From NCBI GenBank assembly GCA_965262355.1, contig OZ253534.1:3425794-3489793 (forward strand): a stretch of DNA of 64,000 nt, in the 5' to 3' direction. The notes under the pieces are model-generated. The model ran no database searches, was not told the DNA's origin, and saw only the letters and a list, made by a program, of their open reading frames with translations. Origin of the DNA: Candidatus Multivorans sp. Lineage in GTDB: Bacteria; Acidobacteriota; Thermoanaerobaculia; Multivoradales; Multivoraceae. This document shows positions 21,533-54,025 of the stretch, in pieces (position 1 is the stretch's first letter; each line of letters begins with the position of its first letter). A program made the position numbers and the translations under genes.

Positions 21533-24118
21533 TCACGGCACGGTGCGGCCGGCGAGGATGCCGAGGTACTCCTGCACCTGCTGCCGGCTTGACCCGGCGC
21601 CGAGCGCGGCCATCAGGAAGACCCGGGCCTTGAGTCCGTCGAGGTCCTCTCCGCCCACGACTCCCATTTCGTCGAAGGGCGGATAGAGCACCACCCTTCC
21701 CGCTCCCGTGCGTGTTGTGAAGAGGACCACGACATCGTTCTCGATCGCCTCTCGCAGGGCCGGCGCCACGCGCTCCGGCACATTGCCGCGTCCGAACACC
21801 TCCACGACCAGACCCTTGGCGCCATTCTCGACGGCCGCGCGCACCAGATGGCCGTCGCTGCCCGCGACGAGCCGCAACAGGTCGACGTTGGGCTCGATCC
21901 TCGCGGCCGGAATCAGCAGGCGCCTCGTCGGCCGCCGTTTCAGATAGAAGACGCCGTCGTCGAAGCTGCCGAGCGGTCCGACACCCGGCGACACGAAAGC
22001 CTCTACCGCCACCGAGTGGGTCTTGCGCACGTCACGGGCCGCGTGGACTTCGTCGTTCAGGGTCACCACGACGCCGAGCTGTCTGGCCGCTGGTGAGCCG
22101 GCGAGAGTGACGGCGTTGAGCAGATTGCGTGGGCCGTCGGTATCCGTTCGCTGCGGAGAGCGTTGCGCCGCGGCGAACACGACCGGGCGTGGGTCCGCCA
22201 CCAGGAGATCGACGAGGAACGCGGTTTCCTCGAGTGAATCCGTGCCGTGGGTGATCACGACCCCGCTGAGCGAGGCGTCGCGCGCGAAGAGCTCGTTCAC
22301 GCGCTGCGCCAGCAAGAACTGGATCTCGGGCGTCATCTGCGAGCTGCCGATGGCGCTCCAGTCCTCGCCGGTCACCGTCGCTACCCGAGCCAGCTCGGGA
22401 ATCGCCTCGACGAGGTTGGATGCGGTCAGCTTCCCGTCCGTCGCGCTGGCGATCGTGCCGCCGGTCGCCACCACATGGACCTTCGGCAGTTCGCCGCTTC
22501 GGCGCCCCGAACCTCCTCGCCGTAGCGGGCGTCCCGGCCGGGCGCCCGTGACCTCACCGTCGAGCAGAACGAAGACACCGCCCACCAGCACATGCCGCGC
22601 GCCCTTCGCGTAGTGATGCGGGTCGCCGAATGCGGCGGGGTCGTCGATCTCGTCGACCGCGAAGACGGCAATGTCGGCCACGCCGCCTATCCCCAGACGA
22701 CCACGATCCGCGAGGCCGAGCCGATCCGCGGGAAGCGACGACATCTTGCGGATCGCCTCCGGCAGGGACAACACGCCTTCATCGCGCGCATAGTGGCCGA
22801 GGACGCGGGCGAAGGTTCCGTAGTTGCGTGGATGCGGAACTCCCTCGCCGGGCGCCACGATGCCGCCATCGGACGCGATCATCGTCTGCGGGTGCCGCAT
22901 GATCCTGATGACGTCCTGCTCCTCCATCGCGTGGAAGATGCCGCTGAAACCGCCCTTCTCCTGCAGCTCGAGCGCGAGTTCCGCGGCCGCTTCCAGGTCA
23001 TCCCGGGCCTCGCCGCGCCGGGCCAGAATGTCGGCCAGACTCATTCCGTTGAGCGACGGATCCCACTCGCACTGGGAAACGACGACGTTCTTCGGATGTC
23101 CCCCACCGCGGTCGACGCGCAGGGCCTCGACGACGCCGGCTTTGATTCGCGCTCTCGTGTCCGGGTCGCGGAGGCGCGCCAGTAGATCTTCGGGCTCGCC
23201 TTCCAGACTCCAGGCGGGGAAGAGGATCGAGAGCGAGGTGCTCGACGCGGTGTAGGGGTACTGGTCGATCGTCACGTCGACGCCCCTCGCCCGTGCCGCG
23301 TCGACGAGGGCCAGGGACTGTTCGCTGGCGCCCCACATCGGGGCGCCAACCACTTTGTGATGTGTCAACTGCGTCGGCAAGCCGCCCTCCTCGCCGATGC
23401 GGATGGTCTCCTCGACCGCGGCGAGGAGTTCGAGGCCTTCCTCGCGCATGTGACTGACGTGGAAACCGCCAAAACGTGCAGCGACCCGCGCGAGGGCGAT
23501 GACCTCTTCGGTCGTCGCGTAGGCGCCGGGCACGTACTTGAGCCCGGTCGACAGGCCGAACGCCCCTTCGCTCATCGCCTGTTCGACGAGCCGCTTCATC
23601 GCCTCGAGCTCGTCTTCCGTCGGCGCCCTGTCCTCGTTGCCCATCACCTGACCGCGGATCGTGCCGTGGCCGACGGTTAGCCCGAAGTTGATCGCCGGCG
23701 GATGGAGGTCGATGCGCGCCAGGAAGTCGCCAATCGGAAGCGGAGAACTCCCATCCGGCCCCTCGATGACCGTCGTTACGCCCTGGCGGACGTAGTTCTC
23801 GGCCAGCGGATGCCGGAACACGCCCCGCACGGCGTGGCTGTGGATGTCGATGAAACCTGGAGTGACCGCGAGTCCGCTCACGTCGAGGCGTTCGGCGGCT
23901 CGTGCGCCTTCGAGGTCACCGATCGCCGTGATCCGGTCACCCACGATGCCGACATCGGCGCGGTAGGGCTCGCCGCCACGGCCGTCGTAGATCGTCCCGC
24001 CTTCGAGCACCAGGTGATAGCGCGACCCGTCGGCGGCCTGACCGAGGCAGACAGCGGCGGATGACAGGGCGAGGACGGCAGCGGCGGCGCCCCCGGTCGC
24101 CGGCCAGTTCCGACTCAA
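21533..24118 (-). CDS. Fusion protein: N-acyl-D-amino-acid deacylase (D-aminoacylase, amidohydrolase family) plus L-asparaginase, with signal peptide
   Basis: N-terminal half: GGTIYDGRGGEPYRADVGIVGDRITAIGDL…PGFIDIHSH. C-terminal ~330 aa: KVHVVATGGTIAS…VVITHGTDSLEETAFLVDLL (asparaginase TGGTIAG and HGTDT motifs). Start assigned to a TTG giving MSRNWPATGGAAAAVLALSSAAVCLGQA. The upstream ~114 codons of the ORF are Arg-rich junk. Confidence 0.7.
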   Translation of the reverse strand: MSRNWPATGGAAAAVLALSSAAVCLGQAADGSRYHLVLEGGTIYDGRGGEPYRADVGIVGDRITAIGDLEGARAAERLDVSGLAVTPGFIDIHSHAVRGVFRHPLAENYVRQGVTTVIEGPDGSSPLPIGDFLARIDLHPPAINFGLTVGHGTIRGQVMGNEDRAPTEDELEAMKRLVEQAMSEGAFGLSTGLKYVPGAYATTEEVIALARVAARFGGFHVSHMREEGLELLAAVEETIRIGEEGGLPTQLTHHKVVGAPMWGASEQSLALVDAARARGVDVTIDQYPYTASSTSLSILFPAWSLEGEPEDLLARLRDPDTRARIKAGVVEALRVDRGGGHPKNVVVSQCEWDPSLNGMSLADILARRGEARDDLEAAAELALELQEKGGFSGIFHAMEEQDVIRIMRHPQTMIASDGGIVAPGEGVPHPRNYGTFARVLGHYARDEGVLSLPEAIRKMSSLPADRLGLADRGRLGIGGVADIAVFAVDEIDDPAAFGDPHHYAKGARHVLVGGVFVLLDGEVTGARPGRPLRRGGSGRRSGELPKVHVVATGGTIASATDGKLTASNLVEAIPELARVATVTGEDWSAIGSSQMTPEIQFLLAQRVNELFARDASLSGVVITHGTDSLEETAFLVDLLVADPRPVVFAAAQRSPQRTDTDGPRNLLNAVTLAGSPAARQLGVVVTLNDEVHAARDVRKTHSVAVEAFVSPGVGPLGSFDDGVFYLKRRPTRRLLIPAARIEPNVDLLRLVAGSDGHLVRAAVENGAKGLVVEVFGRGNVPERVAPALREAIENDVVVLFTTRTGAGRVVLYPPFDEMGVVGGEDLDGLKARVFLMAALGAGSSRQQVQEYLGILAGRTVP

Positions 24119-25317
24119 CGGTGCTCCAGGAGGAGCGCGAACAGATCGTCGCGCACGCGGTTGCGCAAGCCGCCGCCCTCGTCCTGGTTGAACTGCACGG
24201 CCACCGCAATCCCCGAGTCCCGGTGGTAGTACATCGTGGAGCGCCAACCGGGGAACCAGCCGCCATGGCCCACGAGTTCGCCGTGCGGGGTATCGGCACA
24301 GTAGACGCCGAGCCCGTAGGTCGCCTCGGCGTCTTCCCCCCGGTAGCCGGAGCCCAGCATCTCTTCCAGGTACGGCCCGTCGAGCGCTCGCCCCTCGTAG
24401 AGGATCTTGGCCCAGCGTGCCAGGTCCCGGGAGTTCGAGACGTAGCCGCCGCCTGTCCACTCCGTGCGCGGGTTGAAGGCGGTTAGGCCGTCCTCAGCCG
24501 TCTTGGCCGGTAGGGCGAAGGCATTGTCTTCGCCAAGGTGACCGGGGGCGAGATCGGTGAACGAGCGGCCCAGTTGTTCCTCCGTGCGAGGAAGGTCGTG
24601 ACGGTCGAGGACGCGGCGCCGCGCCTCTTCGTAGTAGTTGCCGCCGGATGCCGCTTCCAGGATGAGGCCCGCAACGATGAACCCGGTGTCGGTGTAGGAG
24701 TACCCCTCGCCGGGCGCGAAGAGAGGCTCCTTGTCGAGGACGAACTGAACCAGCTCGCGTGGTTCGAAGTAGAAGTCCGGGTCGGCGGCCGGACCGCCCC
24801 TTCGGGCCCTGGCTTCCCGGCGCCAGGCGTCGTCGAACACGTGGTCGGTCAAACCGCTCGAGTGACTGAGCAGATGGCGAAGGGTCATCGTCTCGTGGTT
24901 GGGAAGCCGTGTCCACCAGGGCTCGTTCCCGAGCCAGCGGGAGGCCAGGTCATCGAGGCCGAGGAGGCCTTCGTTCGCCATGCTGAGCGCGGTGGCCGCG
25001 GCAAACGTCTTGCCGATGCTGCCGGCCGGCATGCGGTGCTCGGGTGTCATCAACACGCCGCGCTCCGGGTCGGCATAGCCGGTCGCGGCAGAGCCTTCGC
25101 TGCCATCCGGAAGGACGAACGCGGCGGTTCCCCCGATGAATCCCAGCTCGTCGCGCAGTTCATCAAGTCGCTCTTGGAACAGCTCCTCGATCTCCGTCGC
25201 CACCACTGCCTCGCTCCCTTCAGTGCCTGCGATCTCGGAGCCCGTGGGCTCGGTGCACGCCGCGCCCAGGGCAAGCATCGGGAGAAGGGTGAGCCCTGTG
25301 ACCTGCCGGCGAGCCAC
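24115..25317 (-). CDS. Serine hydrolase, beta-lactamase/S12 family (D-aminopeptidase / DD-peptidase-like), probable lipoprotein
   Basis: …HRMPAGSIGKTFAAATAL (S-x-x-K)…YSYTDTGF… Start uncertain (25278-25317). LLPMLALGAAC is lipobox-like. Confidence 0.75.
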   Translation of the reverse strand: MARRQVTGLTLLPMLALGAACTEPTGSEIAGTEGSEAVVATEIEELFQERLDELRDELGFIGGTAAFVLPDGSEGSAATGYADPERGVLMTPEHRMPAGSIGKTFAAATALSMANEGLLGLDDLASRWLGNEPWWTRLPNHETMTLRHLLSHSSGLTDHVFDDAWRREARARRGGPAADPDFYFEPRELVQFVLDKEPLFAPGEGYSYTDTGFIVAGLILEAASGGNYYEEARRRVLDRHDLPRTEEQLGRSFTDLAPGHLGEDNAFALPAKTAEDGLTAFNPRTEWTGGGYVSNSRDLARWAKILYEGRALDGPYLEEMLGSGYRGEDAEATYGLGVYCADTPHGELVGHGGWFPGWRSTMYYHRDSGIAVAVQFNQDEGGGLRNRVRDDLFALLLEHR

Positions 25318-25408
25318 CCGGCAGCTAGCGCGGCAGGAACTGGGTGCGCCGGCGCCCCCGCCGGCTTCCGAGAGACACGCGCCGCGAAGCGGCGACAAAC
25401 CTGGCGCA

Positions 25409-26704
25409 CTAGTCCCACGCATATGCGGCCCGAATTCTTGCCGGCAACTCCTGAAACACGACTGGATTGGCCTCGCTGCTGTTGGCCAGGATGACATAGC
25501 CGTCGCCGCCTTCGAGCGATCCGACGAAGTTCCCGCGAAAGCCCCAGTTGCCGCCGGTATGGCCGAAGAAACGGGCCGGTTCTCCGGGCGGTGCGGGACG
25601 GTGGGGTGTGGTGGCGCCGGCGGTGAAGCCGAGCGCGTACTGACCCACGCCTCCCGGCGTCACCATCTTCCGGGCGAACTCAGCTCCAAGGACCCGGTTG
25701 GAGCGCCCTTCCAGCGAGAGCTGGACCTCGATCAGGAACTTGGCCAGATCGGTCGGAGTCGTCCAAAGCCCCGCGGCATAGAGCTCCGGATAGACGTGCC
25801 ATTTCGCGCGCGGCTCTCCCTCGTCCCCGGCCTCGCCTGTAACAGACCCGCCCGCTCGCGCCGCGTTGACTTCGAGTGCCGCAGGCAGGGGTTGGCAGAA
25901 GCAACTGCGTGTCATGTCGAGTGGATCGAGAATCGTCTCCTGGAGAATATCCGCAAACGGCTGTTCCCGAACGTCGCTCAGAGCGAGTTGCAGGATCGTC
26001 GAACCGCCTCCCGAGTACTCGTAGCGGGTGCCGGGCTGCCAGGCGACGACCACGGGCTCGGTGTTTGCGCGCGTCGTCTGACCTTCACGCCCGAGGATCT
26101 CGGGGACAGTCGGCAGCCCGGCGCCGGCCTCGTAGCCGGGGAATCCCGAGACCGTGGTGCCCGCCGTCATGCTCAGCAGCATCCGTGGAGTCACCAGCGT
26201 CTCGGCAAGCAGCTCGGCGTCATCCTCGAGCCGCCAGGAGCGAAGCAAAGAGTTGATGTCGTCGTCGAGCTCGAAGAGTCCATCCTGAACAGCTCGGAGA
26301 ACCGCCATGGCCGACAGCGGCTTGCTGATCGACGCGGCCTGGAAGAGCGTCTCGACGTCGGCAGGCGCGCCGCTTGTTTCGTCTGCTACGCCATAGGCCC
26401 TGGCCCAGGCCAGCCGGTAGTCCTCGACGACCGCGAGGCTGAGTGCCGGGATGCCGTGCGTCTCCATGAGTTCCGCGAGGCTCTTGCCGGCATCGTCGCT
26501 CGACCCCGGCTGGCGCGGCGCTTCGATCCTGGCGATCCGTTCCGCCGGCTCGTCCGGACTGGCGCCGTCCGGCTGCGCCTGGAGGGGTATGGCGAGAACC
26601 CAGACCAGCAGGAGGCCACGACCTGCCAAGGACAGTAGTCGCTGTGGTCCGATGCCTGTTGCCGAAACGACGAACGCCTGTGGCGGAATCGCCGGGCTCT
26701 TCAT
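25409..26704 (-). CDS. Serine hydrolase, beta-lactamase/S12 family, secreted
   Basis: Signal peptide, then …ETLFQAASISKPLSAMAVL (S-x-x-K)…YEYSGGG…HTGGNWGF…. Confidence 0.8.
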   Translation of the reverse strand: MKSPAIPPQAFVVSATGIGPQRLLSLAGRGLLLVWVLAIPLQAQPDGASPDEPAERIARIEAPRQPGSSDDAGKSLAELMETHGIPALSLAVVEDYRLAWARAYGVADETSGAPADVETLFQAASISKPLSAMAVLRAVQDGLFELDDDINSLLRSWRLEDDAELLAETLVTPRMLLSMTAGTTVSGFPGYEAGAGLPTVPEILGREGQTTRANTEPVVVAWQPGTRYEYSGGGSTILQLALSDVREQPFADILQETILDPLDMTRSCFCQPLPAALEVNAARAGGSVTGEAGDEGEPRAKWHVYPELYAAGLWTTPTDLAKFLIEVQLSLEGRSNRVLGAEFARKMVTPGGVGQYALGFTAGATTPHRPAPPGEPARFFGHTGGNWGFRGNFVGSLEGGDGYVILANSSEANPVVFQELPARIRAAYAWD

Positions 26705-50723: not shown

Positions 50724-50841
50724 CGTACCGACGGGTGCTGTTCCCGTCGCGCTGTACAGTGTGCGAGTGGACATCAAGGTAGATACGCGAGGCCGTGAGG
50801 CCGGCCCCCCCGGCTACTTCGACGACGCCGACGGCTTCCTC

Positions 50842-52689
50842 ATGCCGTTGGCTCCCAACACGAGATCCCGCCGCATTCCCCTCGGTGACTTTCCGACCGG
50901 TCCCGAGGTCGGCACGCGACTACCCGAGGTGGTCGCGATCGACCAATACGGTCGCTCGGTCGACCTGCATGCGGACCGCCGTGGCCAACCGGCGGTCCTG
51001 GTCTTCTCCCGATCAGCGGTGTGGTGACCCCCCTGTCGAACCCAGCTGGTCGAGCTGGAGCGAGGAATGGCCGCTTTCGATGCCGCCGGGGTCAAGCTCT
51101 ACACCCTGACCTATGACGAGGTCGATGCGCTCGCCGACTACTCCAATGCCATGGGGGTCACTTTCACCATGCTGTCGGACCCGAACAGCGAGGTGATTCG
51201 AGCGTTCGGGATCCTCAACACGCTCATCCCGCCGGACGAGCACCCCTGGTACGGGATCCCCTTTCCCGGGGCCTACGCGATCGATGCCGACGGCATCATC
51301 GTCGCCAAGTTCTTCGACCGCAACTTTGGTGCGAGATTCGGACCCGAGCAGCTCCTCAACGCTGCTCTCGGCCGGAGGTTCGAGGTGGAGCCCGCGGCAA
51401 GCCCGGCGGAGCAGGTGAGTGTCGACGTGATCCTCGACGCCGACCGGCTGCTCTCGGGCGTCATTCACGAGATCGTCGCGACCTTCCGGGTACCGGAAGG
51501 GCAGCATCTCTACGGCGAGCCGGTACCGGACGGCCTGGTGGCTGCCACGATCGAAGTCGACGACGCTCCCGGCATCATCAGCCGCACTCTGGTCGCACCG
51601 CCTACTTCCAGGTTGACCCTCGCCGGGTCCGGCGACACCCTCGAAGTCTACGAGGGCGACGTGGTGCTGCGGCTACCGATCGCACAAAACGGCAGAGCCA
51701 TGCAGAAGGCCGACGGCAAGCGCTATGTCGACATCAGCGGCAGGGTCCGTTGGCAAGCGTGCGACGACGTGGAGTGCGGTCTACCTCGGTCGCAGAGCTT
51801 CGACTTCCGGGTCGAAGCCGGTTTCCCGGTCCTCCCGGACATGGGCCCAGGGGTGGGACGAGTACCGGAAATGAACGGTGCTGCCCACTTCAAGAAGATG
51901 ATGGAGCGGAAGTCCATGTGGTCCATGCTCAACTGGGGCACGGTGATGGGGATCGACGCCTTCTGCGACGCTCTGGAGTTCCCGCTGCTTCCGCTCCCGG
52001 AGGTGCGGGCCGGTGAACCTACCCGCTACCGACCCGCGGAGGCCGTCGACGATGGCGCCTGGGTTCCCATGATCCCCAACGATGGCGAGGGTGAGAACGA
52101 AGCCGACGTCTACGATCGGCTTCCCGCTTCCCGTCGCTTCGTGCCGAACGTGATTCGGGCCATGTCCCTCGTGCCCGATGCCCTGCGTAATCTGCTCGAC
52201 CTTCTGTTTCCCTTCTACCTGGCGGGTCACAACCCAAAGTCTGGCAGCCTGGACCGCAGGCAGACGGAGTTGGTCGCCGGCCGGTTATCCGCCCTCAACG
52301 AGTGCTTCTACTGAACGACCGCACACGCACAGATGCTCCGGGCGAGCAGTCAGGGCAGCGATGTGGACTTCGAGGCGATCACTAGGGGTGCCAGCGATCA
52401 AGTGACCGGGGTGGCGTATGGCGCAGAGTTGATCGCCTACGCGGATGCGGTAGTTGCCCGGTCACCGGAGGCGACACAGGCCCGCGACGCCGTCCAGAAG
52501 TCGTTGGGAGATGCAGCGGTCGTCGACGTCGCCGCCGTCATCGCGAACTTTCAGCGCATGGTTCGCATCGCCGACGGAATCGGGATCCCCCTCGGCGAAG
52601 AGCTCGATCTTCGCTCGGCGGACCTTCGACACGAGATCAGGATCAACGAATTCGCCAGTGCCGCAGGGCGCAGGATCAGCGCGACGTGA
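50842..52689 (+). CDS. Candidate two-selenocysteine redox protein: TlpA-like thioredoxin-fold domain (W-U-P-P-C), DsbD-alpha-like domain, AhpD-like domain (C-F-Y-U-x3-H). TGA codons at 51025-51027 and 52312-52314 are read as Sec
   Basis: Three consecutive ORFs (50554-51027, 51067-52314, 52333-52689) share one frame and are separated only by TGA codons. TGA 1 replaces the first Cys of …AVLVFSRSAVW[TGA]PPCRTQL… TGA 2 replaces the second Cys of …RLSALNECFY[TGA]TTAHAQ… (AhpD CxxCxxxH). Domain homology is continuous across both TGAs. Hairpins sit 15-20 nt downstream of each TGA. The middle domain carries a DsbD-alpha-like WQACDDVECGLP motif. Start codon uncertain (ATG 50842 or GTG 50761/50767). 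Confidence 0.6.
51042..51058 (+). ncRNA. Putative bacterial SECIS-like hairpin after the first in-frame UGA
   Basis: CCAGC-UGGUCGA-GCUGG (5-bp stem, G-containing 7-nt loop), starting ~15 nt 3' of the UGA at 51025-51027. Confidence 0.35.
52334..52348 (+). ncRNA. Putative bacterial SECIS-like hairpin after the second in-frame UGA
   Basis: UGCUC-CGGGC-GAGCA (5-6-bp stem, GGG apical loop), starting ~20 nt 3' of the UGA at 52312-52314. Confidence 0.35.
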
Positions 52690-52790: not shown

Positions 52791-53801
52791 ATGACTGACG
52801 ACCGCTCCAGCGTTATCAACTTTCTTTCGATCTTTGGGATGTTCATCGTGGCGATCGGGACCGCGGTGTTCTCTCCGCCCGTGTTTGCGCAGTCGTCTCA
52901 GCAGGTCTTCGAAGCTAGCGACGCCGACAGCGACGGCGCGATCAGCAAGGCCCAAACTCCCGATCCCAGCTTCGGGACCCTGAACCCGAACGCGGCAAGT
53001 TTCATGATCGTTCCGCCGGATCAGGACGGAATGTTGTACATCCTCAACCTCATGAAGTACCGGGACAAGGCCGAATATCCCGACGGGCGCGAGACGAACC
53101 TGACGGGCGAAGAAGCCGACAGGCTGTACAACCCGTTACCGGAAGTTGAGAAAGTGGGCGGCGGGCTAGTTTACGCCGGCAGCGTCGAAGCGCAGCTCGT
53201 AGGCAAAGATCCGACGTGGGATCGGGTCGGAATCGTCATGTATCCGAGTCGGGCGAAGATCGCGCAAATGAGGGCGAGCGCGGGTTTCCAAGAGACCGTC
53301 GTTCACAAAGGCCCAAGCCTCGCCGCGTCCCAGATCATCGTCACGATACCCGAAGAAGATTGGACGTATTCGGATAAGCCTCCGGTCACCGCGGCCGACG
53401 TTCCCCATCCGGCGTCCGCCGACGACCCGTCCTTTACTCTCTTTCATCTGGTGAAGTATCGCGCCGTCGCCGAGTACCCCGAAGGCAGCAGCGAACCCCA
53501 ACGGAGTGGACGCGAAGCGATGGACGTGTTTTGGAAATCTCTGGAGGGAAGTCTTCACGAGGCCGGCGTGGAGCCGATGCTCAAAGCGGAAGTCGCCGGT
53601 GTTCTGGTCGGCGACGGGCGAGATTGGGACGACTATCGCATCCTGAGGTTCCCGAGCCGTCGCGCCTACGAGGCCGTACTCGCGAGAATTGAGTCGAGCG
53701 ATTCTGCCATTCACTTTGCCGCTGCCGTCGAGGACGAGTACCGTTTGCAACTGGTGGACCTGATGGACAGGACGGCCAATCCCCCAACGCCTCCGAAGTA
53801 G
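52791..53801 (+). CDS. Secreted protein with tandem DUF1330-like domains (paralog of 48067-48981)
   Basis: N-terminal TM/signal (FLSIFGMFIVAIGTAVFS), then LYILNLMKYRDKAEYPDGRETNLTGEEADRLY…VMYPSRAKIAQM and FTLFHLVKYRAVAEYPEGSSEPQRSGREAMDVF…ILRFPSRRAYEAV. Confidence 0.55.
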   Translation: MTDDRSSVINFLSIFGMFIVAIGTAVFSPPVFAQSSQQVFEASDADSDGAISKAQTPDPSFGTLNPNAASFMIVPPDQDGMLYILNLMKYRDKAEYPDGRETNLTGEEADRLYNPLPEVEKVGGGLVYAGSVEAQLVGKDPTWDRVGIVMYPSRAKIAQMRASAGFQETVVHKGPSLAASQIIVTIPEEDWTYSDKPPVTAADVPHPASADDPSFTLFHLVKYRAVAEYPEGSSEPQRSGREAMDVFWKSLEGSLHEAGVEPMLKAEVAGVLVGDGRDWDDYRILRFPSRRAYEAVLARIESSDSAIHFAAAVEDEYRLQLVDLMDRTANPPTPPK

Positions 53802-53948: not shown

Positions 53949-54025
53949 TGGTGTCCCCAACGGGATTCGAACCCGTGTTGCCAGCTTGAAAGGCTGGAGT
54001 CCTGACCTGGCTAGACGATGGGGAC
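53949..54025 (-). tRNA. tRNA-Glu: tRNA-Glu (anticodon UUC)
   Basis: Reverse complement folds as acceptor GTCCCCA/TGGGGAC, D-arm GTCT/GGAC, anticodon stem CCAGC/GCTGG with loop CTTTCAA (anticodon TTC), T-arm ACGGG-TTCGAAT-CCCGT, discriminator A plus CCA. Coordinates ±2. Confidence 0.8.

What the first reader, a model, noticed from the sequence alone, without database searches (positions are those of the whole stretch)
52312..52350. SECIS-like hairpin ~20 nt downstream of the second in-frame UGA
UGCUC-CGGGC-GAGCA (extendable to 6 bp with a GGG loop) follows the UGA in the AhpD-like CxxU motif. A second independent hairpin supports reading both UGAs as Sec rather than as coincidental stops.
Basis: seen in the sequence. 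Interest (0 to 1): 0.55.

Follow-up and report, generated by a model that had tools for sequence, protein, structure and literature searches.

The report
Selenocysteine insertion hairpin in AhpD-related gene
The small hairpin after the second in-frame UGA is the conserved bacterial signal for reading that UGA as selenocysteine in a known family of AhpD-related selenoproteins, so it is real but ordinary; only the two-selenocysteine gene fusion that carries it is unusual.

Summary
The 5-bp hairpin UGCUC-CGGGC-GAGCA exists at 52334-52348. It starts 19 nt after the UGA at 52312-52314. The claimed 6-bp/GGG-loop extension is wrong, because both candidate extra pairs are mismatches.

In the window alone the hairpin is unconvincing. 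It has -5.7 kcal/mol, 9% ensemble probability and a fold z-score of -0.3. About 12% of all window positions are followed by an equally good hairpin.

Comparison with relatives settles it. The UGA lies in the CFYUTxAH motif of NCBIfam NF041238, "alkylhydroperoxidase-related (seleno)protein". This family was first reported in 2005 as Sargasso Sea "hypothetical protein 1", with a predicted SECIS.

- All 82 distinct family sequences I collected carry TGA at this codon.
- All 82 carry the same hairpin in the same register, and RNAalifold predicts it independently.
- Synonymous sites inside it are nearly frozen: Leu is always CUC, Arg only CGU/CGG.
- The sixth pair covaries (C-G 53, A-U 11, G-C 2).
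- Cys-containing homologues have a changed loop, and one of the two has lost the stem.

It fits three of the four published bacterial SECIS rules, and most relatives fit all four. This is a new member of a known kind.

Here a roughly 370-nt deletion has fused the upstream Prx-like selenoprotein gene to this one, giving one ORF with two Sec codons.

The parts
50767..52689 (+). Fused ORF of 640 codons with two in-frame UGA codons (Sec87 and Sec516). Domain order: Prx-like (AhpC/TSA), DsbD_N, then a truncated AhpD-related domain. It ends with a TGA stop at 52687-52689.
   Evidence: Translation is. The GTG start at 50767 is inferred from the conserved M-[ED]-I-K-V-D-T-R-G N-terminus in homologous loci. 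Pfam domains are and NCBIfam.
50908..51306 (+). AhpC/TSA (Prx-like) domain carrying the W-U-P-P-C redox motif.
   Evidence: Pfam PF00578, 85 bits, residues 23-155 of the 615-aa translation that starts at 50842.
51025..51027 (+). First in-frame UGA (Sec87), in a UxxC motif.
   Evidence: W*PPC with TGA is seen in every one of the 31 genome loci whose translation was visible in the printout (its middle was cut off), and in all 24 distinct sequences, window included.
51042..51058 (+). Hairpin after UGA1: CCAGCU-GGUCG-AGCUGG. It has 6 bp, a 14-nt spacer, and 20 nt between UGA and loop.
   Evidence: 100% of cells are paired in 24 distinct sequences. The outer pair is C-G in 20 and G-C in 4. The stem also appears in the single-sequence fold.
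51466..51804 (+). DsbD_N-like domain.
   Evidence: Pfam PF11412, 33.6 bits.
51910..51939 (+). Fusion junction, peptide KSMWSMLNWG. Close relatives have here the stop of the Prx-like gene and the first ~125 codons of a separate AhpD-related gene.
   Evidence: DNA alignment of the window with L003, L004 and L005. The NF041238 profile matches only positions 111-357 in the window but 1-356 in L003.
51940..52659 (+). AhpD-related (NF041238, CFYUT) domain, lacking its N-terminal part.
   Evidence: NCBIfam NF041238 at 265.5 bits, residues 367-606, profile 111-357 of 357. Pfam CMD matches residues 467-502.
52303..52326 (+). Active-site motif C-F-Y-U-T-T-A-H, the CxxU form of CxxCxxxH.
52312..52314 (+). 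Second in-frame UGA (Sec516).
   Evidence: TGA at this codon in 82 of 82 distinct family sequences. The codon is TGT/TGC in Microbulbifer homologues.
52334..52348 (+). The hairpin of the finding, read as a bacterial SECIS upper stem and apical loop. 5' arm UGCUC 52334-52338, loop CGGGC 52339-52343, 3' arm GAGCA 52344-52348.
   Evidence: RNAalifold consensus over 82 sequences, pair counts, and a covariance model built without the window clade that hits 52312-52356 at 51.7 bits.

Best explanation
The hairpin at 52334-52348 is the core of a bacterial selenocysteine insertion sequence (bSECIS): the upper stem plus a G-containing apical loop. It lies inside the coding region, 19 nt after the UGA at 52312.

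Inferred mechanism, from the established E. coli pathway: the elongation factor SelB, loaded with GTP and Sec-tRNA(Sec), binds the apical loop and upper stem through its C-terminal domain as the ribosome approaches. It then delivers Sec-tRNA(Sec) to the UGA in the A site. The codon is read as selenocysteine instead of stop, and the active site becomes C-F-Y-U of an AhpD-related thiol/selenol oxidoreductase domain.

Shown here:
- The UGA sits in a curated selenoprotein family.
- The hairpin is conserved at nucleotide level across the family, in a fixed register.
- It fits the published bSECIS geometry.

Inferred, not shown:
- SelB binding.
- Actual Sec insertion in this organism.
- Presence of selA, selB, selC and selD elsewhere in its genome.
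For: 1. **Family.** NF041238 'AhpD_rel_CFYUT' scores 265 bits (cutoff 175), and the alignment spans the UGA. A 2026 review lists NF041238 as the AhpD-related selenoprotein first called 'hypothetical protein 1' of the Sargasso Sea, with a CxxU motif. The 2005 paper shows a predicted SECIS for that family in its Figure 3.
2. **Conserved TGA.** 82 of 82 distinct sequences from 80 metagenome loci plus the window clade have TGA at this codon. The loci are 41-57% identical to the window protein. Protein databases hold the family mostly as ~245-aa fragments ending in ...CFY and ~137-aa C-terminal fragments, which is the signature of gene callers stopping at a Sec codon.
3. **Independent structure prediction.** RNAalifold predicts exactly this hairpin, alignment columns 28-33 with 39-44. 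The five core pairs are standard pairs in 409 of 410 cells; pair 29-43 has one G·A.
4. **Constraint beyond the protein.** Mean entropy at third codon positions is 0.29 bits inside the hairpin and 1.45 bits in flanking codons. Leu is CUC in 82 of 82 (38% of Leu codons elsewhere in these genes). Arg is only CGU or CGG, in 81 of 82 (37% elsewhere).
5. **Covariation at the sixth pair.** C-G 53, A-U 11, U-G 4, G-C 2. U at column 44 occurs only with A at column 28 (Fisher p = 5e-8, not corrected for phylogeny). Pair 30-42 is G-C 75, G-U 5, A-U 2.
6. **Cys control.** Cys-form homologues (Microbulbifer, TGT/TGC) read MLLQVS instead of MLRAS. The loop CGK becomes CAG in both. In one of the two the stem codons also change to UUG UUG ... 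GUU AGU, so that copy has lost the hairpin; the other keeps a GCUC/GAGU stem.
7. **bSECIS rules as quoted.** The loop is 5 nt (allowed 3-9). The stem is 5 bp (allowed 4-16). G is the second loop nucleotide and is followed by G or U. The UGA-to-loop distance is 24 nt (allowed 16-37).
8. **Covariance model.** A model built from 77 members, without the window clade, finds one strong hit in the 64-kb window, at 52312-52356: 51.7 bits, against 11.2 bits for the next best.
Against: - The window's own copy is the weakest in the family. It has 5 bp with an A·G mismatch at the sixth pair, -5.7 kcal/mol, and -6.6 with a bulged two-pair extension. It therefore misses the -7.5 kcal/mol rule, has 9% ensemble probability, and folds no better than shuffles.
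- No tRNA-Sec or Sec-machinery gene was found in the window. The rest of the genome could not be searched.
- No Rfam family matches.
- Most of the support is sequence invariance rather than covariation. Only two pairs show double changes, and the sequences are phylogenetically related.
- The covariance-model hit is not independent of coding homology.
- The domain here lacks the first ~110 profile positions of the family, including its first CxxC motif, so function in this genome is not assured.
Confidence: 0.85

Rival explanations
1. Relic element. The family hairpin is a true SECIS, but in this genome the fused and truncated gene is decaying. UGA2 then mostly or always terminates translation, giving a 515-residue Prx-like/DsbD_N product with a non-functional tail.
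For: - The ~370-nt deletion removed profile positions 1-110 of NF041238, including the first CxxC motif.
- The window-clade hairpin is the weakest version: 5 bp, an A·G mismatch, -5.7 kcal/mol and 9% ensemble probability.
Against: - The fusion is exactly in frame.
- Both UGAs, the hairpin and the 125-codon reading frame after UGA2 are intact in the window and in two other assemblies that also carry the fusion (L001, L002).
- The unfused relatives L003, L004, L005 and L024 carry the same 5-bp, A·G version of the hairpin, so it is a clade trait and not a consequence of the fusion.
- The C-terminal part still scores well above the family cutoff.
Confidence: 0.1
2. Coding artefact. The hairpin is a by-product of a conserved peptide (L-L/M-R-A-S) plus codon bias in G+C-rich genomes. 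Sec insertion, if it occurs, relies on some other signal.
For: - The stem and loop overlap conserved residues.
- Most pairs never vary, and invariant pairs say nothing for or against a structure.
- The MFE fold of the window sequence uses a different pairing.
Against: - Codon choice is fixed far beyond usage: CUC 82 of 82 against 38% elsewhere, CGU/CGG 81 of 82 against 37%, and the third base of the next codon is G in 82 of 82 even though the amino acid varies among A, V, E and G.
- Ser is always AGY and never UCN.
- The Arg is not needed by the protein, since Cys homologues have Gln there.
- Changes in residues at the sixth pair are coordinated so that pairing is kept.
Confidence: 0.04
3. Pure chance. 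The stem-loop means nothing, and UGA2 is an ordinary stop between two genes, with the second starting at ATG 52333.
For: - 12% of positions in the window are followed by such a hairpin.
- The fold z-score is -0.3.
- Mechanical ORF calling does give 51067-52314 and 52333-52689 as separate ORFs.
Against: - The CxxCxxxH active-site motif and the NF041238 profile run straight across the UGA.
- Homologues have Cys codons at that exact position.
- 82 of 82 family sequences keep the TGA and the hairpin.
Confidence: 0.01

Closest known systems
Bacterial SECIS consensus (Zhang and Gladyshev bSECISearch model, as summarised in PMC13188914)
   Same: - A stem-loop inside the coding region, directly after the Sec-UGA.
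- A small apical loop (5 nt) with G in the second position, followed by G or U.
- 24 nt from UGA to loop, within the allowed 16-37.
- An upper stem of 5 bp in the window and 6-9 bp in 84% of relatives.
   Different: The window copy does not reach the -7.5 kcal/mol threshold on its own. The first and last loop nucleotides (C...C) do not form the closing pair that is described as common in the consensus pattern.
SECIS of 'hypothetical protein 1' of the Sargasso Sea, now NCBIfam NF041238 AhpD_rel_CFYUT (PMC1088965 Figure 3; PMC13188914 table)
   Same: Same protein family, same CxxU (CFYU) Sec position, and a predicted hairpin directly downstream.
   Different: - I could not see the published figure, so identity of the drawn structure with this hairpin is inferred, not checked.
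- Here the domain lacks its N-terminal ~110 positions and is fused to another selenoprotein.
E. coli fdhF / fdnG SECIS (from my own knowledge of the classical system, not checked against a source here)
   Same: Position directly 3' of the UGA, a hairpin with G/U-containing apical loop that SelB binds, and a dual role as coding sequence and RNA signal.
   Different: - The E. coli element is about 40 nt long, with a longer stem and a bulged U that is needed for SelB binding.
- This one has a short continuous stem and a CGKGN loop.
- The hairpin after UGA1 in this same gene (loop GGUCG) resembles the fdhF loop more closely.
[quoted passage not shown]
   Same: A UxxC Prx-like selenoprotein gene directly followed by a CxxU AhpD-like selenoprotein gene, as in L003, L004, L005 and L024. 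In mycobacteria AhpD re-reduces AhpC (own knowledge), which suggests a redox partnership.
   Different: - In the window the two genes are one ORF.
- Whether the GOS pair belongs to the same two families was not checked.
- A DsbD_N domain lies between the two redox centres here.

Membership tests
Bacterial SECIS (bSECIS consensus model) | Apical loop of 3-9 nt on an upper stem of 4-16 bp | tested here: met
   The loop CGGGC is 5 nt and the stem is 5 bp in the window. Stem lengths in the 82 family sequences: 8 bp in 38, 6 bp in 15, 7 bp in 12, 5 bp in 12, 9 bp in 4, 4 bp in 1. The rule is quoted.
Bacterial SECIS (bSECIS consensus model) | At least one G in the first two loop positions, usually followed by G or U | tested here: met
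   The loop is C-G-G in the window. Family loops: CGUGN 59, CGGGN 22, GGGGC 1. The G at loop position 2 and the G at position 4 are invariant.
Bacterial SECIS (bSECIS consensus model) | [quoted passage not shown] | tested here: met
   24 nt (52315-52338), identical in all 82 sequences, whose alignment has no gaps.
Bacterial SECIS (bSECIS consensus model) | Minimum free energy of -7.5 kcal/mol or lower | tested here: inconclusive
   - Window hairpin: -4.9 kcal/mol alone and -5.7 in context, or -6.6 with a bulged 2-bp extension. This misses the threshold.
- A 60-nt fold constrained to keep the hairpin reaches -15.1.
- 83% of family members pass with the hairpin alone, median -10.0.
- Which span the published rule applies to is not stated in the text I read.
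Bacterial SECIS (bSECIS consensus model) | Binds SelB and directs Sec insertion at the upstream UGA | not testable with these tools
   Needs a binding assay, a reporter, 75Se labelling or proteomics.
Bacterial SECIS (bSECIS consensus model) | The host genome encodes selA, selB, selC (tRNA-Sec) and selD | not tested
   - No tRNA-Sec is found in the 64-kb window.
- The neighbouring genes examined are unrelated to Sec synthesis.
NCBIfam NF041238 AhpD_rel_CFYUT, alkylhydroperoxidase-related (seleno)protein | Score above the curated cutoff (175 bits) | tested here: met
   265.5 bits for the window fusion and 432.9 bits for the stand-alone gene of L003.
NCBIfam NF041238 AhpD_rel_CFYUT, alkylhydroperoxidase-related (seleno)protein | C-F-Y-U/C-T motif at the active site (CxxU followed by xxxH) | tested here: met
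   ECFY-U-TTAH at 52300-52326.
NCBIfam NF041238 AhpD_rel_CFYUT, alkylhydroperoxidase-related (seleno)protein | Full-length architecture (profile positions 1-357, including the N-terminal half with its own CxxC) | tested here: not met
   Only profile positions 111-357 are matched in the window. Positions 1-110 were lost in the deletion that made the fusion. It is therefore a truncated, fused member.
Rfam SECIS families | Match to a curated covariance model | tested here: not met
   No hit at gathering thresholds over the whole window. No SECIS hit up to E = 10 over 50950-52450.

The most novel reading that the evidence does not exclude
The in-frame deletion did not cripple the gene. It instead created a single 640-residue protein with two selenocysteines. 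In it the truncated AhpD-related CxxU domain acts as a built-in reductant for the Prx-like UxxC centre, possibly through the DsbD_N domain. This would be a self-contained, selenium-based version of the AhpC/AhpD relay, and it would need two different SECIS hairpins to be read in one mRNA.
Probability: 0.25. Interest if true: 0.45.

Novelty: new member of a known kind. Interest (0 to 1): 0.27.

Why it matters
**Annotation.** Reading this UGA as Sec turns two apparent ORFs (51067-52314 and 52333-52689) into one redox protein. With UGA1 included, three apparent pieces become one protein. The protein database searched here holds the family mostly as fragments cut at this codon, so the nucleotide signature found here is a practical flag for rescuing them. 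That signature is TGA, then 20 nt, then GCUC-CGKGN-GAGY.

**Biology.** It adds a sponge-symbiont Acidobacteriota lineage (Ca. Multivorans) to the users of this selenoprotein family. It also documents a natural fusion of two selenoprotein genes that were already known to occur as neighbours.

**Limits.** It does not change the understanding of Sec decoding.

Tried and rejected
- **Single-sequence folding** of the 60 nt after each UGA gave z = -0.32 and -0.58, which is uninformative in 65% G+C DNA.
- **Rfam**, at gathering thresholds and at E up to 10, gave no SECIS family. The only hit was a sub-threshold aspS RNA match at 51633-51706 (E = 1.3), which I take as noise.
- **First protein search with the whole 615-aa fusion** returned one hit only, because the candidate list was saturated. 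Searching again with the AhpD-related part alone worked.
- **Sec machinery nearby.** One tRNA only (tRNA-Glu). The neighbours are HEAT-repeat, 3-keto-disaccharide hydrolase, SDR, TauD, PQQ dehydrogenase and TonB-receptor genes.
- **W-U/C-P-x-C Prx-like gene next to the AhpD-related gene in the 80 metagenome loci.** None was found. The flanks were too short to reach that motif, so this is inconclusive.
- **Literature on Ca. Poriferisodalis.** No paper in the library.
- **Second-best covariance-model hit** (24580-24590, 11.2 bits). It lies antisense to a 460-aa ORF whose sequence looks like a beta-lactamase-family protein by eye, and no ORF of 80 aa or more ends at the TGA at 24558. I rejected it as chance.
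C·C and A·G are not pairs.
Full report
**1. What is in the window**

Frame +1 holds one long reading frame from a GTG at 50767 to a TGA stop at 52687-52689. It is interrupted by two in-frame TGA codons, at 51025-51027 and 52312-52314. The GTG start is inferred from the conserved N-terminus of homologues.

With U replaced by C, Pfam finds three domains:
- AhpC/TSA, 85 bits.
- DsbD_N, 34 bits.
- A CMD/AhpD core around the second UGA.

The first UGA gives the motif W-U-P-P-C (UxxC). The second gives E-C-F-Y-U-T-T-A-H, which is the CxxCxxxH active-site pattern of AhpD-type proteins with Sec as the second redox residue.

**2. The observation itself**

The stem UGCUC/GAGCA with loop CGGGC is at 52334-52348. 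It lies 19 nt after the UGA, and 24 nt separate the UGA from the loop.

Taken alone the hairpin is weak:
- Its energy is -4.9 kcal/mol in isolation and -5.7 in context.
- Its ensemble pairing probability is 0.09.
- The MFE fold of the 60 nt after the UGA uses another pairing and is no better than shuffles, z = -0.32.
- In this 65% G+C window, 11.7% of all positions and 11.9% of all TGA triplets are followed by a hairpin of at least 5 bp with SECIS-like geometry.

**3. Which protein family the UGA sits in**

NCBIfam NF041238 'AhpD_rel_CFYUT, alkylhydroperoxidase-related (seleno)protein' matches at 265 bits (cutoff 175), and the match runs across the UGA. The model's name spells out the motif found here.

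[quoted passage not shown] The 2005 Sargasso Sea paper defined that family, noted its CXXU motif, and showed a predicted bacterial SECIS for it in Figure 3.

A protein search with the AhpD-related part returned 1020 hits:
- Most are ~245-aa proteins ending in ...CFY, or ~137-aa C-terminal pieces. These are genes cut at this codon by gene callers.
- A few are full-length Cys forms (CFYC) from Microbulbifer.

**4. Comparative test of the hairpin**

A genome scan placed the window in Ca. Multivorans (Acidobacteriota, Thermoanaerobaculia; sponge-associated MAGs) and gave close relatives. A metagenome scan with a family alignment gave 80 further loci, 41-57% identical to the window protein.

Every locus has TGA at the Sec position, and two loci carry two paralogues. 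This yields 82 distinct 69-nt segments that align without gaps. The pattern after the UGA is:

UGA ACN NNN NCN CAY NNN NNN NUG CUC CGK GNG AGC

RNAalifold, given no hint, predicts columns 28-33 paired with 39-44.

Pair counts:

| Pair (alignment columns) | Counts |
|---|---|
| 31-41, 32-40, 33-39 (inner three) | standard pairs in all 82 sequences |
| 29-43 | U-A 43, U-G 38, G·A 1 |
| 30-42 | G-C 75, G-U 5, A-U 2 |
| 28-44 | C-G 53, A-U 11, U-G 4, G-C 2, broken 12 |

U at column 44 occurs only with A at column 28 (Fisher p = 5e-8, uncorrected for phylogeny). The window is one of nine sequences with A·G at pair 28-44.

In the family the hairpin is typically 8 bp, -10 kcal/mol, with 0.91 ensemble probability.

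**5. Is this only protein conservation?**

No. Three lines of evidence argue against it.
- Third codon positions inside the hairpin have a mean entropy of 0.29 bits, against 1.45 bits in the flanking codons.
- Codon choice is fixed. Leu is CUC in 82 of 82, although CUC is 38% of Leu codons elsewhere in these genes. Arg is CGU or CGG in 81 of 82 (37% elsewhere) and never CGC. The next codon always ends in G while its amino acid varies among A, V, E and G. Ser is AGY and never UCN.
- The two Cys-form homologues whose DNA I fetched read M-L-L-Q-V-S. The loop triplet becomes CAG in both. One copy keeps a GCUC/GAGU stem, and in the other the stem codons are UUG UUG ... GUU AGU, so that copy has lost the hairpin. 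This is what would be expected once a SECIS is no longer needed, though two sequences are a small sample.

A covariance model built from 77 family members, excluding the window and its close relatives, finds one strong hit in the 64-kb window. It is at 52312-52356 and scores 51.7 bits, against 11.2 bits for the runner-up. This test is not independent of coding homology.

**6. Fit to the published bSECIS rules (quoted)**

- Loop of 3-9 nt: met (5 nt).
- Upper stem of 4-16 bp: met (5 bp).
- G within the first two loop positions, followed by G or U: met (C-G-G here, C-G-U in most relatives).
- UGA-to-loop distance of 16-37 nt: met (24 nt).
- Energy of -7.5 kcal/mol or lower: missed by the window hairpin on its own (-5.7, or -6.6 with a bulged extension), but met by 83% of relatives.

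Rfam has no matching family.

**7. Mechanism**

The best-supported reading is a bacterial SECIS. SelB·GTP·Sec-tRNA(Sec) binds the apical loop and upper stem and decodes the UGA 19 nt upstream as Sec. The steps involving SelB are inferred from the E. coli paradigm and were not shown here. I also could not check that the genome carries selA, selB, selC and selD, because none lies in the window.

**8. The companion hairpin**

After UGA1, the hairpin CCAGCU-GGUCG-AGCUGG (51042-51058) is fully paired in 24 distinct sequences from Acidobacteriota and Acidimicrobiia MAGs. Its outer pair is swapped from C-G to G-C in four of them.

**9. What is unusual here**

In the close relatives L003, L004, L005 and L024, the Prx-like/DsbD_N gene ends with ...KKMIERRK-stop. 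A separate 372-codon AhpD-related gene starts just downstream (L004) or overlaps that stop (L003, L005).

In the window, and in L001 and L002, about 370 nt are missing. A 10-residue junction (51910-51939) joins the two genes in frame and removes the first ~110 profile positions of the AhpD-related protein. The product is a predicted 640-residue protein with Sec87 and Sec516.

Neighbouring Prx-like and AhpD-like selenoprotein genes have been reported before. I found no report of their fusion, but I did not search the literature specifically for one. Whether the fusion works or is on the way to decay is open.

**10. Verdict**

The hairpin is real and is most likely the SECIS of a known selenoprotein family. 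This is a new member of a known kind. Interest is low to moderate and rests mainly on the two-Sec fusion.

Noticed in passing
window 51910-51939 (junction); compare L003 1245-1720 and L004/L005 3835-4310: A deletion of about 370 nt relative to close relatives fuses the Prx-like/DsbD_N selenoprotein gene in frame to the AhpD-related selenoprotein gene. It removes the stop codon of the first gene and the first ~125 codons of the second, including its CRLC motif. The fusion is shared by the window, L001 and L002.
   Followed up: partly
window 51025-51058; L001-L031: The first UGA (W-U-P-P-C) and its hairpin CCAGCU-GGUCG-AGCUGG are conserved in MAGs of two phyla: Ca. Multivorans (Acidobacteriota) and Ca. 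Poriferisodalis and other Acidimicrobiia (Actinomycetota). Protein identity between them is about 70%, which is high for a cross-phylum comparison and may point to gene transfer between these lineages (the Multivorans MAGs are sponge-associated).
   Followed up: partly
L113, L114, L115 (protein P0041), codon at the Sec position: One family member has CGA (Arg) instead of UGA, while the downstream hairpin GCUGCUC-GGGGC-GAGCAGC is intact. This looks like a recent UGA-to-CGA change that replaces the catalytic Sec with Arg. The same protein sequence is found in several marine metagenome assemblies.
   Followed up: partly
L112 and L116 (Microbulbifer, proteins P0049 and P0055): Full-length Cys forms (CFYC) of the family. 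L112 still has a residual GCUC...GAGU stem with a CAGGU loop, while L116 has lost it. This looks like stages of SECIS decay after a Sec-to-Cys replacement.
   Followed up: partly
L078 (TGA at 747 and 1876) and L088 (TGA at 543 and 1672): Two contigs each carry two tandem paralogues of the AhpD-related selenoprotein gene, each with its own TGA and hairpin.
   Followed up: no
window 24558-24595, + strand: A look-alike: TGA, then 19 nt, then UUCCUC-CGUGC-GAGGAA, with the same core CUCCGUGCGAG and the same spacing as the family SECIS. It lies antisense to a 460-aa ORF (24115-25497, - strand) whose sequence looks like a beta-lactamase-family protein by eye (not checked against Pfam). No ORF of 80 aa or more ends at that TGA. 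It scores 11.2 bits and I take it as chance.
   Followed up: yes
protein database hits: In the protein database searched, the family is represented mostly by fragments: ~245-aa N-terminal pieces ending in CFY and ~137-aa C-terminal pieces. Gene callers stop at the Sec codon, so most copies of the family are mis-annotated.
   Followed up: no
window 53949-54025, - strand: tRNA-Glu (UUC), the only tRNA in the window. It lies about 1.3 kb downstream of the selenoprotein gene, and there is no tRNA-Sec.
   Followed up: yes
window 52797-53798, + strand: The next gene downstream (334 aa, with a probable N-terminal signal or membrane segment) has no Pfam match. It follows the selenoprotein ORF by about 100 nt on the same strand, so it might be co-transcribed.
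   Followed up: no
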